From the NCBI RefSeq assembly GCF_017348835.2, contig NZ_CP071375.1: a stretch of 64,000 nucleotides of DNA. One strand, 5' to 3'. This stretch comes from Escherichia coli. Lineage in GTDB: Bacteria > Pseudomonadota > Gammaproteobacteria > Enterobacterales > Enterobacteriaceae. Position numbers: made by a program. Positions 16,801-19,800 of this stretch are shown here, piece by piece (the stretch's first letter is position 1; each line of letters begins with the position of its first letter).

Positions 16801-19800
16801 TGAAGTCGCAAGAGGCTCCGCTTGTTGTCTTACCACCAACGGGGCTTTATGGATTCTATTGCTTAATATATGATTGTATCAAACTTAGACTGCATAATTT
16901 AAACGAACATAACAATCAGGCAGGGGAAGAATGATAAAGCCATTTTCTGTGAGGTATGGTCATGTTGACGTTAGAGAGCATGTCCAGCTGAATGATCTTA
17001 ATTCTGATACACGCATAGCATTGTGGAATTGCTTATATCTTTTCCTTTGGACTAACAATCGTCAAACTGCTACAGCAACAAAATGTGCGCAGTCTGTGTG
17101 GATATATTATCTAAATCAACCTGCGGATAATATTCCTCGTTATGAAAGTGGATACAAAAGTGATAAGACGTTGCTGACTGCTATCCGAGATTATATATAT
17201 GGGGAAGCATGGTATTTGGTATATGATTTAATTGAGTTCATCATTGAGAGAACTAATTCATATATTAATCTATCGAAGCATCTCAATTCCATCTTTAAAA
17301 AGCATGGCGTTGGTTATACCATAATAAATGGTTGTATTACTCCTATTTCAAATGATAACGAAATTGAAAGTGTTCAGAACGCAGTTGATAATGGCACTGA
17401 TTCATCGCGTAGCCATTTCGAAAGGGCGTTACAACTAATGACGGATAGAGAGCAGCCAGACTACAGAAACTCGATTAAAGAGTCTATCTCTGCAATTGAA
17501 TCTTTATGCAGGAAAATCACGGGCAATGATAAAGGAACCTTGGGGGCTTGTCTTAAAGCTATAGAGGAAAAAGGATATATACACTCTGCAATGAAAGGCG
17601 CTTTTAGTCAGCTCTATGGTTATACAAGTGATCAGGGTGGAATACGTCATGCGCTAACAGAAGAAGATGTAAATCCTACCTTAGCTGAAGCTAAATTTAT
17701 GTTAGTCACTTGCAGTGCGTTCAGTAATTATCTGTTGTCAAAAATAAGTGATTAATTACAGGTTTATAGTTACGAGTGGGTTAGTTACCCACTCCCTTTA
17801 AAATTATTCACCAGACTCTAATCTTTTTTCTCTTTTCTCATCTCTCCTTTTTATTGCCAAATCGTGTTGCTCTTGCAGATACGTGCGTTCTTCGTTTCTA
17901 TCGCTTGAAGTATATACGTCTGCTTTTACTTTTTTAGCTCCTTGTGCAATAGGTTTCCAATCCTCTCTTATACCTTTAATTTGTTCTGCAATTTGCGTCA
18001 ATGGGCTTCTCGCTCCTAGATAACTTATTCCTTCAAATGTCGCCATGTCATACACATATTCATTTGTTTCTCTATCGTTTGATTTAGGTTTGCTTGCCCA
18101 GCTTATATTAATATTATAAATTTGATCTTTGATTTGTTCATACTTACAGAGATTGCTGGTAAGTGATTGCCCATTTTTTAACACGCTTACCTTACTAAAC
18201 GGAATCTCACTTTTTTCTCTATGCTCCGCATTTACTAGTGGAGGATCAAACACAACCTCAACATTATAGGCAGGTGCGTTCCCTGTATTAGCAATGTTAA
18301 TATCAAAGTAAAAAGCGGCCCAAGGGTTTGGCTCAAGTGTTACAACTATATGGGGTTGAGCTGATGCGTCAACCATTCTTTTTGTCTCGTCTGCTCTGAA
18401 GTGGTGAAGTGGTTTACTGAATTTGGCCACCTGAACAGAGGTGATATGCTCACCTCAGAACAACACAGGTGCTCCAATGAAAAAAAGAAATTTTAGCGCA
18501 GAGTTTAAACGCGAATCCGCTCAACTGGTTGTTGACCAGACATACACGGTGGCAGATGCCGCCAAAGCTATGGATGTTGGCCTTTCCACAATGACAAGAT
18601 GGGTCAAACAACTGCGTGATGAGCGTCAGGGCAAAACACCAAAAGCCTCTCCGATAACACCAGAACAAATCGAAATACGTAAGCTGAGGAAAAAGCTACA
18701 ACGCATTGAAATGGAGAATGAAATATTAAAAAAGGCTACTGTAGATTCAATCTGTCAATGCAACACCCCTTTCAATTATCTCTTTCGGTGTTTTGAACTT
18801 CAGTGTCTTTCTCGGTCTGTTGTTTAGCTGAGCAGCAACCAGATCTAGTTCATGTTGAGTATATTGGGCAAGACATGTCTTTTTAGGAAAGTACTGCCGA
18901 ATTAGCCCATTTGTGTTCTCATTTGTTCCCCGCTGCCAAGGACTCTGAGGATCGCAGAAGTAAACTTTAACGCCGGTGCTGACAGTAAATTCTAGATGTC
19001 TGGCCAGTTCCATTCCTCTGTCCCATGTCAGTGATTTTCTGAGTTCTGACGGTAAACTCAGGAATTTGTCGGTAAGAGCCTGATTTACTGAGACAGAATC
19101 TTTGCCCCTGAGTCTAAGGATGATCGTATAACGTGATTTTCGGTCTACAAGTGTGGCTATATGAGAGTTTTTTGTACCTGAGACTAAATCGCCCTCCCAA
19201 TGCCCCAGAGAGCGTCTGTTATCGATATTTCGGGAACGTTCGTGAATTGGTGTTCCGTTCACTATGTTAATCGTACCTCTTTCGCCTTTGCGGGTATGAC
19301 GCCTGCCATGGCGAAGGCTATGCGACCGTCGCAGATGCTGTATATTCAGGTGGTGTAGCGCTTCACGGCTACGAAAGTACAGCGTTTTATAAATTGTCTC
19401 AGGTGATATTCGCAGCGTTTTTTGACGTGGTTTTGTTCGCCTTAACCATCCTGATATTTGCTCTGGAGACCATTTCATCTCCAGCTTTTCCAGAACAAGC
19501 TTTCGCAATGGTAAATTTTGATCCAGTAAGCACGGTTTTGGCCTTTTCGCCATTCTGTTGGCTCGGTTATTAGCATCAACAGCTTTGTAATAGCGTCTGC
19601 CCCGATTACGCTGAACTTCACGTGAGATCGTCGAAGGACTGCGATTCAGCGCAGTAGCTATCGCACGAATGCTCATTTTGGCTGACAAACCAGCTCGTAT
19701 CTCCTCGCGCTCAGACAGTGTCAGGTGAGCTACAGCCCGCTTATGCTCATGGGGTTTTATGCCGCCAGTATCCCTTAACATAGTGAAGATCGTTCCGGGT

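What the first reader, a model, noticed from the sequence alone, without database searches (positions are those of the whole stretch)
17804..18430. Unknown 208-aa gene whose 5' end runs into the IS911 inverted repeat
Convergent with the gene above, with no recognisable motifs and a highly charged C-terminal tail (KRRDEKREKRLESGE). Its first codons as called derive from the IS911 left end, and the frame is open right up to the IS boundary, so the native gene was probably longer and was truncated by the IS911 insertion or an IS-adjacent deletion. It may be the inactivated partner of a defence or toxin-antitoxin module.
Basis: seen in the sequence. Interest (0 to 1): 0.45.

Follow-up and report, generated by a model that had tools for sequence, protein, structure and literature searches.

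The report
IS911-truncated remnant of a phage membrane-protein gene
The 208-codon reading frame is the dead, 5'-truncated remnant of a roughly 230-residue membrane-anchored protein gene carried by P2-like prophages and leuX islands; IS911 replaced its start, promoter and membrane anchor, an ordinary kind of gene decay.

Summary
An ORF at 17804..18430 (-) runs into the IS911 left end. Its first 9 codons are IS911 sequence and 3 more are junction filler. Native coding sequence starts at 18395, codon 13.

The gene belongs to a widespread family, named DUF8453 in RefSeq and phrog_11802 in PHROGs, with 1,838 cluster representatives. Its members are about 230 aa. They have a conserved N-terminal transmembrane helix, an Ig-like beta-sandwich and C-terminal charged helices.

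The same leuX site holds intact genes in Enterobacter roggenkampii (234 aa, 90% nt identity, collinear) and in E. coli E2348/69 (230 aa). A paralogue sits in the Z/fun slot of P2-like prophages. The window copy lacks codons 1-38, the Shine-Dalgarno sequence and the promoter. RefSeq's 190-aa call from Met 18376 starts at a conserved internal Met.

About 475-490 E. coli genomes share this junction. In the O26:H11 genome inspected, IS600 splits the remnant again.

The idea that it partners the convergent AbiJ-NTD4 (PDC-S32) gene is not supported. That slot holds a different gene in E2348/69, and the family occurs without AbiJ in seven other contexts.

The function of the intact family is untested. 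My best guess is a prophage or island accessory membrane protein involved in phage exclusion. Interest is low.

The parts
17804..18395 (-). Native-derived part of the ORF. It corresponds to codons 39-234 of the ancestral gene of about 234 codons, plus the stop (17804-17806). It encodes the Ig-like beta-sandwich and the C-terminal helices but not the membrane anchor.
   Evidence: The stretch 16226-18395 is 89.9% nt identical and collinear with Enterobacter roggenkampii L004, ending at nt 114 of its 234-codon gene. Three-way DNA alignment and protein alignment A1 agree.
18396..18404 (.). Junction filler: an orphan C (18396) plus an 8-bp tandem duplicate of the IS911 tip TGAAGTGG (18397-18404). 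It contributes codons 10-12 (H, F, R) of the called ORF and the last base of codon 9.
   Evidence: Sequence. Most other IS911 copies match only from 18405.
18405..18430 (-). IS911 left inverted repeat read on the antisense strand. It supplies the GTG 'start' and codons 1-9 (MAKFSKPLH) of the called ORF.
18405..20868 (+). IS911 (IS3 family) interrupted by IS30. The IS30 transposase is at 18747..19898 (-). It is the same composite as in K-12-like strains next to yjhV-fecE.
   Evidence: ORFs; RefSeq annotation of an identical locus; 99.4% and 98.4% collinear with a K-12-like strain.
18374..18376 (-). ATG used by RefSeq/PGAP as the start of the 190-aa 'hypothetical/DUF8453' protein WP_000227281.1. 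It is a conserved internal Met (Met45 of the 234-aa protein) with no Shine-Dalgarno sequence upstream.
16931..17755 (+). Intact convergent neighbour, a 274-aa AbiJ-NTD4 domain protein matching PADLOC PDC-S32. It is an independent cargo cassette in a swappable slot.
   Evidence: Pfam PF18863 at 4e-27. PDC-S32 at 6e-104, end to end. Slot swap in E2348/69.
17774..17794 (.). 8-bp-stem hairpin (GAGTGGGT-5 nt-ACCCACTC) between the two convergent stop codons. It may be a shared terminator.
   Evidence: Sequence and fold at -15 to -17 kcal/mol. The consensus terminator scan did not report it.
16313..16397 (+). tRNA-Leu(CAA), leuX, the island integration site that anchors the locus.
   Evidence: ARAGORN. 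The same tRNA flanks the intact islands.

Best explanation
The ORF is a 5'-truncated, most probably non-functional remnant of a horizontally acquired accessory gene. It sat at the leuX-proximal end of an integrative island.

The ancestral gene encoded a protein of about 234 aa. The parts, in order, are a short N-terminus, one transmembrane helix (residues ~12-34), a positively charged juxtamembrane stretch, an Ig-like beta-sandwich (~54-154) carrying the family motif N-T-G-N-A-x-A, and two C-terminal charged helices. The charge distribution implies that the C-terminal domain faces the cytoplasm.

A rearrangement at the left end of a resident IS911 removed codons 1-38, the Shine-Dalgarno sequence, the promoter and the rest of the island (resolvase, DEAD helicase and further genes). 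An adjacent deletion or IS-mediated recombination is most likely. It left an 8-bp duplication of the IS tip at the joint. The open frame happens to continue into the IS911 inverted repeat, which creates an artificial GTG 'start'.

Shown: the truncation, its exact breakpoint, the missing membrane anchor and expression signals, the family membership, and the independence from AbiJ.

Inferred: the loss of function; the topology; and the idea that the intact family is a prophage/island 'lysogenic conversion' membrane protein that acts against superinfecting phages by exclusion or abortive infection. I put that last inference at about 0.35-0.4.
For: - ORF and junction.
- IS911 boundary at 18405.
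- Length of homologues: relatives below 90% identity are mostly 225-246 aa. Alignment A1 shows the window sequence joining the family at A13 (ADETKRMVDAS), after 38 missing residues that include the near-invariant TAVATFFLWRVT helix.
- Hydrophobicity: the Kyte-Doolittle 19-mer maximum is 1.7-2.3 in 12 homologues and 0.78 in the window protein.
- Collinearity: 89.9% nt identity with the Enterobacter roggenkampii leuX island up to window 18395, where the gene is intact at 234 aa.
- An intact 230-aa gene sits at leuX in E. coli E2348/69.
- A 230-aa paralogue lies between the tail-sheath and tail-fibre-assembly genes of a P2-like prophage. It is also in the P2-EC53 Z-region record, annotated 'putative lysogenic conversion protein' with its own RBS and -10, and in phage R18C.
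- The upstream region is conserved between the P2 and island copies and is absent from the window.
- There is no Shine-Dalgarno sequence before either candidate start, and no promoter-like site upstream of the ORF.
- AF2 model: pLDDT 85.9, helix 2-49, beta-sandwich, two C-terminal helices.
- 130 of the best 150 family representatives match from profile position 22 or earlier. Three 'short' members were checked and all encode the TM helix upstream in frame.
- IS600 splits the remnant again in O26:H11 str. 11368, where PGAP flags it as a pseudogene. Matches cut at about 18276 in two other genomes suggest the same interruption.
- A K-12-like strain has the same IS911::IS30-fec structure with a different left flank.
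Against: - The frame is still open for 196 native codons, and about 475 E. coli genomes keep it at 99% identity or more. Some expression cannot be excluded, for example by read-through from the IS30 transposase gene on the same strand, with initiation at GTG 18430 or ATG 18376. No transcript or protein data were available.
- The near-identity of the copies reflects recent common descent. It says nothing about selection in either direction.
- The order of events is unresolved (deletion, recombination between IS911 copies, IS30 insertion). The O26 genome inspected has the same left junction but no IS30 in its IS911.
Confidence: 0.9

Rival explanations
1. The gene is intact and starts at Met 18376, as RefSeq/PGAP annotates it (190 aa, WP_000227281.1). 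On this view it encodes a soluble cytoplasmic beta-sandwich protein.
For: PGAP calls it a complete CDS in hundreds of genomes. The Met is conserved in most of the family. Seven family representatives in the 50% library also start at this Met.
Against: Homology continues six codons upstream of this Met to the breakpoint. No Shine-Dalgarno sequence precedes it. The only promoter-like match lies downstream of it. Orthologues at the same site are 230-234 aa. All three 'short' representatives that were examined have the TM helix encoded in frame upstream, so they are start-codon miscalls.
Confidence: 0.03
2. The remnant is expressed as an IS-fusion protein, or from read-through transcription out of IS30/IS911. 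On this view it has kept or gained a function as a soluble domain, for example as a decoy or dominant-negative form.
For: The frame is open for 208 codons. The IS30 transposase gene is on the same strand upstream. The junction is retained in about 475-490 genomes.
Against: An in-frame stop lies 7 codons upstream of the GTG. Neither start has an SD. The near-invariant TM helix is lost. IS600 disrupts the remnant further in O26:H11 str. 11368. The high identity of the copies is explained by recent shared ancestry.
Confidence: 0.05
3. The gene was the functional partner of the convergent AbiJ-NTD4 gene in a two-gene defence or toxin-antitoxin module, now half-inactivated.
For: The same convergent pair, 48 nt apart, occurs in Enterobacter roggenkampii. 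AbiJ-NTD4 matches a PADLOC defence candidate. Family members sit beside other defence candidates, such as a TIR/PDC-S35 protein in Rhizobium.
Against: The Enterobacter pair belongs to the same island at 90% nt identity, so it is not an independent observation. E2348/69 keeps the intact gene but has an unrelated 182-aa gene in AbiJ's place. No AbiJ lies next to family members in P2 prophages, Klebsiella, Citrobacter, Yersinia, Biostraticola, Rhizobium or Sphingomonas. The genes are convergent, not co-transcribed. The AbiJ gene matches the PDC-S32 models end to end and is still intact in the O26 genome where the remnant is further broken.
Confidence: 0.07

Closest known systems
DUF8453 / phrog_11802 family, including ORF1 of the phage P2-EC53 Z-region ('putative lysogenic conversion protein', AJ512682, CAD54906.1)
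   Same: The window protein is 51-76% identical to the enterobacterial members in alignment A1 over the beta-sandwich and C-terminal helices. It shares the invariant motifs N-x-W, N-T-G-N-A-x-A, F-D-P-P, L-G-A and R-E-D-W.
   Different: The window copy lacks the first 38 residues (the TM helix), the SD and the promoter. It lies at leuX next to IS911, not in a P2 prophage.
Intact orthologues at leuX: Enterobacter roggenkampii 234-aa protein (P0040) and E. coli E2348/69 WP_000569068.1 (230 aa)
   Same: Same chromosomal site (tRNA-Leu CAA) and same orientation. The Enterobacter copy has the same AbiJ-NTD4 neighbour and is 90% nt identical.
   Different: Those genes are complete and continue into an island backbone of resolvase, DEAD/DEAH helicase and many small ORFs. 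In the window IS911::IS30 replaces all of that.
IS-truncated pseudogenes beside the IS911::IS30 composite of the E. coli K-12 KpLE2/fec region
   Same: The same IS911::IS30-yjhV-fecE segment, with a short 204-nt 'MFS transporter' CDS abutting its left end.
   Different: The left-flank sequence differs: K-12 has the nanXY/yjhDE region. The window junction also carries an extra 8-bp copy of the IS tip.
Prophage-encoded membrane superinfection-exclusion proteins and P2 accessory genes (P2 fun(Z), tin, old; HK97 gp15; T4 Imm). These are recalled from general knowledge, not tested here.
   Same: A small, single-gene, membrane-anchored accessory product in a P2 accessory-gene hotspot within the tail genes. 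That hotspot is described in the bioRxiv paper 10.64898/2026.02.27.708500. P2 old and tin anti-phage activity is confirmed in PMC9122126.
   Different: There is no sequence or structural similarity to any of them, and no phenotype is known for this family. The resemblance is one of genomic niche and architecture only.

Membership tests
DUF8453 / phrog_11802 (P2-EC53 Z-region ORF1 family) | Significant sequence homology across the beta-sandwich and C-terminal helices | tested here: met
   131 homologues at E<=1e-3, 37-76% identity in alignment A1 with 30 invariant columns. The full-length homologue P0040 matches phrog_11802 at 1.3e-115. RefSeq labels the window protein DUF8453.
DUF8453 / phrog_11802 (P2-EC53 Z-region ORF1 family) | N-terminal transmembrane helix with the near-invariant T-A-x-A-T...L...T..L core | tested here: not met
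   The helix is absent from the window. Homology starts at family residue 39. The maximum 19-mer hydropathy is 0.78, against 1.7-2.3 in homologues. The copy is therefore a truncated member, not an intact one.
DUF8453 / phrog_11802 (P2-EC53 Z-region ORF1 family) | Own start codon with SD and a conserved upstream region | tested here: not met
   The upstream region conserved between the P2 and island copies, annotated with an RBS and -10 in AJ512682, is replaced by IS911. No SD and no upstream promoter-like site.
IS911 (IS3 family) left end at the ORF's 5' end | Match to the IS911 terminal inverted repeat and orfA, shared with copies in unrelated contexts | tested here: met
   Thousands of E. 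coli IS911 copies match from window 18405 onward. The K-12-like copy aligns at 99.4%.
IS911 simple insertion into the gene | Both halves of the target gene flank the IS, with a short target-site duplication | tested here: not met
   The right flank of the IS is yjhV/fecE, not the 5' part of the gene. A K-12-like strain has the same IS and right flank with a different left flank. A deletion or rearrangement is inferred.
Two-gene defence or toxin-antitoxin module with AbiJ-NTD4 | Conserved co-occurrence and co-orientation (operon) of the two genes across independent lineages | tested here: not met
   The genes are convergent. AbiJ is present only in the near-identical Enterobacter island. It is swapped out in E2348/69 and absent in 7 other contexts.
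Known anti-phage defence proteins (PADLOC-DB v2.0.0) | Match to a defence-system HMM | tested here: not met
   No PADLOC family matches the 208-aa ORF at E<=1, whereas the neighbour matches PDC-S32 at 6e-104.
Phage superinfection-exclusion / lysogenic-conversion membrane protein (functional class) | A demonstrated phage-resistance phenotype and membrane localisation | not testable with these tools
   Only circumstantial: location in the P2 Z/fun slot, the predicted TM helix and the defence-type neighbourhood. No literature was found.

The most novel reading that the evidence does not exclude
The intact family (DUF8453/phrog_11802) may be an uncharacterised single-protein phage-exclusion or abortive-infection determinant. 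It would be a membrane-tethered cytoplasmic Ig-like domain, carried as a self-contained promoter-plus-gene cassette that moves between the P2 Z/fun hotspot and the ends of tRNA-associated islands. The window copy would be a dead relic of it. A less likely variant, at about 0.05, is that the anchor-less remnant is still made and acts as a soluble decoy.
Probability: 0.35. Interest if true: 0.45.

Novelty: already known. Interest (0 to 1): 0.15.

Why it matters
The finding matters mainly as an annotation correction. RefSeq lists WP_000227281.1 as a complete 190-aa protein in several hundred E. coli genomes, including ATCC 11775, ATCC 25922 and Nissle 1917. It is in fact a 5'-truncated pseudogene that has lost its membrane anchor and its expression signals. 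Three other family members examined in public collections also have their start miscalled at the same internal Met.

There is a secondary point. The analysis identifies a broad, untested family of small membrane-anchored proteins that occupy phage and island accessory slots next to defence candidates. An intact allele, such as E2348/69 WP_000569068.1 or P2-EC53 ORF1, would be a reasonable candidate for an anti-phage screen. The window's own copy is not.

Tried and rejected
1. **Invertible-segment idea.** A small serine recombinase lies about 460 bp upstream, divergent, of the full-length gene in Enterobacter, E2348/69, Yersinia and Biostraticola, and nearby in Citrobacter. The P2-EC53 record also annotates flanking 'inverted repeats'. 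I searched for inverted repeats around the gene in three loci and found only short matches at chance level (14-22 nt, 78-88% complementary). Rejected for lack of evidence.
2. **Native short isoform starting at the conserved Met.** Seven family representatives start there. The three I examined all have the TM helix encoded in frame upstream, so they are miscalled starts. Rejected.
4. **Family libraries.** Pfam-A, PADLOC and NCBIfam gave no meaningful hit for the protein.
5. **Literature.** 'P2-EC53' and 'DUF8453' returned no papers. The AbiJ/PDC-S32 search returned nothing relevant. The main P2 locus characterised in Rousset et al. (PMC9122126) is the one holding old and tin, not the Z/fun slot.
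6. **Promoter for the remnant.** The scan found 2 sites against 2.7 expected by chance. The only nearby one (18372-18345) lies inside the ORF, downstream of both candidate starts.
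Full report
**1. The observation**

The ORF list shows a 208-codon frame at 17804..18430 on the minus strand. It has a GTG start and ends ...AIKRRDEKREKRLESGE. It is convergent with a 274-codon ORF at 16931..17755 (sequence).

I compared the junction region with all complete E. coli genomes. IS911 copies in unrelated contexts begin to match at window position 18405 (query position 205/206; position 26 of the 71-nt query). The plus strand reads ...CTCGTCTGCT C TGAAGTGG TGAAGTGGTTTACTGAATTTGGCCACC.... This gives the following breakdown:

- Codons 1-9 (MAKFSKPLH) come from the IS911 inverted repeat.
- Positions 18397-18404 are an 8-bp tandem copy of the IS tip.
- Position 18396 is an orphan base.
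- Native sequence starts at 18395.

The frame stays open into IS911, up to a TGA seven codons before the GTG.

**2. What the gene is**

The word-indexed protein search found 131 homologues. The E. coli entries are 190-220 aa, with varying start calls or partial sequences. Relatives from Enterobacter, Klebsiella, Citrobacter, Yersinia, Pectobacterium, Rhizobium, Caulobacter and Sphingomonas are mostly 225-246 aa.

In the alignment the window protein joins the family at A13 (ADETKRMVDAS...). Every full-length member has about 38 further N-terminal residues. These contain a hydrophobic helix with a near-invariant core, TAVATFFLWRVT. The best Kyte-Doolittle 19-mer scores 1.7-2.3 in twelve homologues and 0.78 in the window protein.

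A profile search of 1.84 billion cluster representatives found 1,838 members at E<=1e-3 and 160 at E<=1e-30. Nearly all are stand-alone proteins of about 210-245 aa. Of the best 150, 130 match from profile position 22 or earlier.

Family libraries gave the following:

- Pfam-A, PADLOC and NCBIfam give no meaningful hit.
- A full-length homologue matches phrog_11802, of unknown function, at 1e-115.
- Recent RefSeq records call the window protein 'DUF8453 domain-containing protein'.

**3. Proof of truncation from orthologous loci**

Window 16226-18395 is collinear at 89.9% nucleotide identity with an Enterobacter roggenkampii contig. That contig carries tRNA-Leu(CAA), a 274-aa AbiJ_NTD4 gene and, convergent with it, an intact 234-aa family member. 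The match stops at nucleotide 114 of that gene. Beyond the gene the Enterobacter island continues with a resolvase, a DEAD-box helicase and many small ORFs.

E. coli E2348/69 has the same island backbone at the same leuX site, with an intact 230-aa gene, WP_000569068.1.

A three-way DNA alignment covers the window, the Enterobacter island and a P2-like prophage copy. It shows that the full-length genes share a conserved upstream region and an SD-like sequence (GGGAG/AAGGA). None of this is present in the window. There the sequence switches to IS911 immediately upstream of ...AGCAGACGAGAC.

The window therefore retains codons 39-234 only.

RefSeq/PGAP starts the protein at ATG 18376 (190 aa, WP_000227281.1). 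That Met is Met45 of the family, an internal conserved residue. Neither it nor GTG 18430 is preceded by a Shine-Dalgarno sequence. The promoter scan found no site upstream of the ORF. It returned 2 sites against 2.7 expected by chance, and the nearest lies inside the ORF.

**4.

Seven representatives in the 50% library do begin at that Met. I fetched the DNA for three of them. In each, the upstream in-frame translation encodes the family's TM helix, for example ...VATVLGVLVTAIATVFLVRVTRLLALETRRM. They are start-codon miscalls, not short natural forms. The refutation fails and truncation stands.

**5. How the junction arose**

In the window IS911 is itself interrupted by IS30, whose transposase is at 18747..19898 on the minus strand. 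It is followed by a yjhV-like sequence and fecE.

A K-12-like strain has the same IS911::IS30-fecE segment, 99.4% and 98.4% identical and collinear. Its left flank is different: nanX, nanY, ythA and a 204-nt 'MFS transporter' CDS. The 5' part of the gene is not on the other side of the IS.

This is therefore not a simple insertion. It is an IS-adjacent deletion or an IS-mediated recombination that removed the rest of the island.

In O26:H11 str. 11368 the same remnant sits next to an IS911 without IS30. The order of events is not resolved.

About 475-490 of 5,426 complete E. coli genomes carry the remnant and junction. In the O26:H11 genome IS600 splits the remnant again at about 18276, and PGAP marks it as a pseudogene. 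Two other genomes show the match cut off at the same position.

**6. Structure and likely role of the intact protein**

AlphaFold2 with a 67-sequence alignment gives a confident model, with mean pLDDT 85.9:

- one long helix, residues 2-49, which includes the TM segment
- a seven-strand beta-sandwich, residues 54-154
- helices at 169-188 and 201-231

The N-terminal flank is acidic or neutral and the post-TM flank is basic (WRVTRLLAxETKRM). By the positive-inside rule, the sandwich and the charged tail should be cytoplasmic. This is an inference.

Structural comparison was uninformative:

- Foldseek against PDB gave no hit at E<=1e-3.
- BFVD returned uncharacterised phage transmembrane proteins.
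- A profile search against PDB sequences gave only noise.

There is no catalytic signature.

**7. Genomic niche**

A 230-aa paralogue, about 75% nt identical, occurs in about 100 E. coli genomes. In APEC O78 it lies between the tail-sheath and tail-fibre-assembly genes of a P2-like prophage. The same gene is ORF1 of the 'P2-EC53 proviral Z-region' record, annotated 'putative lysogenic conversion protein'. It is also in phage R18C. A recent preprint notes an accessory-gene and defence hotspot within the P2 tail genes (10.64898/2026.02.27.708500).

Elsewhere the gene sits in integrase-bearing islands of Klebsiella, Citrobacter, Yersinia and Biostraticola. A small serine recombinase often lies nearby. 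In Rhizobium it lies between a DUF6680 gene and a TIR protein that matches PADLOC PDC-S35.

The family thus behaves as mobile accessory cargo in defence-type neighbourhoods. I found no experimental report on it.

My working hypothesis is a membrane-anchored prophage or island protein that interferes with superinfecting phages. I give it about 0.35-0.4. It is inference only.

**8. Relationship to AbiJ-NTD4**

The neighbour at 16931..17755 matches Pfam AbiJ_NTD4 (4e-27) and PADLOC PDC-S32 end to end (6e-104).

The pair recurs in Enterobacter. That is the same island at 90% identity, so it is not independent evidence.

E2348/69 keeps the family gene but carries an unrelated 182-aa gene in AbiJ's place. 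Homology resumes on both sides of that slot. The other seven contexts lack AbiJ. The two genes are also convergent, not operonic.

They are better seen as independent cassettes: a backbone-end gene and a swappable slot next to leuX. The 'inactivated partner' idea is not supported.

**9. Verdict**

What is there is ordinary: an IS-truncated pseudogene whose called start is an artefact of the IS911 inverted repeat.

It has two modest points of value. It corrects a widespread RefSeq call, and it points to an untested family whose intact alleles could be screened for anti-phage activity.

The island remnant is AT-rich, 39.6% GC against 54% for the flanking core genes. That is consistent with horizontal origin.

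Noticed in passing
window 18396-18412: The IS911 tip TGAAGTGG is present twice in tandem (18397-18404 and 18405-18412), preceded by an orphan C. Nearly all other IS911 copies match only from 18405. One plasmid copy (NZ_LR883008.1) matched from 18396. This may be a scar of the rearrangement that made the junction.
   Followed up: partly
window 20840-20880: At the IS911 right end the sequence reads ...GTTGACCAC|AACAGACT. The expected complement of the left tip (CCACTTCA) is missing its last four bases. A K-12-like strain is collinear across this junction at 98.4% identity.
   Followed up: partly
window 16931-17755 (+): An intact 274-aa AbiJ-NTD4 protein matches PADLOC candidate PDC-S32 end to end. 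It sits directly downstream of leuX in a slot that holds an unrelated 182-aa unknown gene in E. coli E2348/69 (L013 10596-11144). This looks like a small cargo-swapping site.
   Followed up: partly
L004 6963-7538; L013 8120-8689; L014 4967-5536; L017 4867-5427; L009 4041-4619: A small serine recombinase (Resolvase family, about 186-192 aa) recurs divergently, about 460 bp upstream of the full-length family gene, in Enterobacterales islands. No flanking inverted repeats were found, so an invertible switch is not supported. The association remains unexplained.
   Followed up: partly
L012 5430-7657: In Rhizobium brockwellii the family gene is tightly packed on one strand between a DUF6680 gene (10-nt gap) and a CAP12-PCTIR TIR protein matching PADLOC PDC-S35 (41-nt gap). 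This may be a three-gene operon.
   Followed up: no
L020 3905-5575 (E. coli O26:H11 11368): In O26:H11 str. 11368 the remnant is further split by IS600, the adjacent IS911 has no IS30, and a primase-helicase gene lies upstream of the AbiJ gene. The leuX locus has had several independent IS and island events.
   Followed up: partly
L021 1423, L022 965, L023 162: Gene callers started three diverse family members at the conserved internal Met, although the TM helix is encoded in frame upstream, probably from non-ATG starts. This may be a recurrent annotation error in the family.
   Followed up: yes
window 17774-17794: An 8-bp-stem, 5-nt-loop hairpin lies between the two convergent stop codons. 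It may be a shared terminator. The consensus terminator scan did not report it.
   Followed up: partly
window 20794-21207 (+): A 137-codon ORF begins inside the IS911 right end and continues into the sequence before fecE. RefSeq annotates only a 258-nt 'hypothetical protein' in the corresponding stretch. It was not examined.
   Followed up: no
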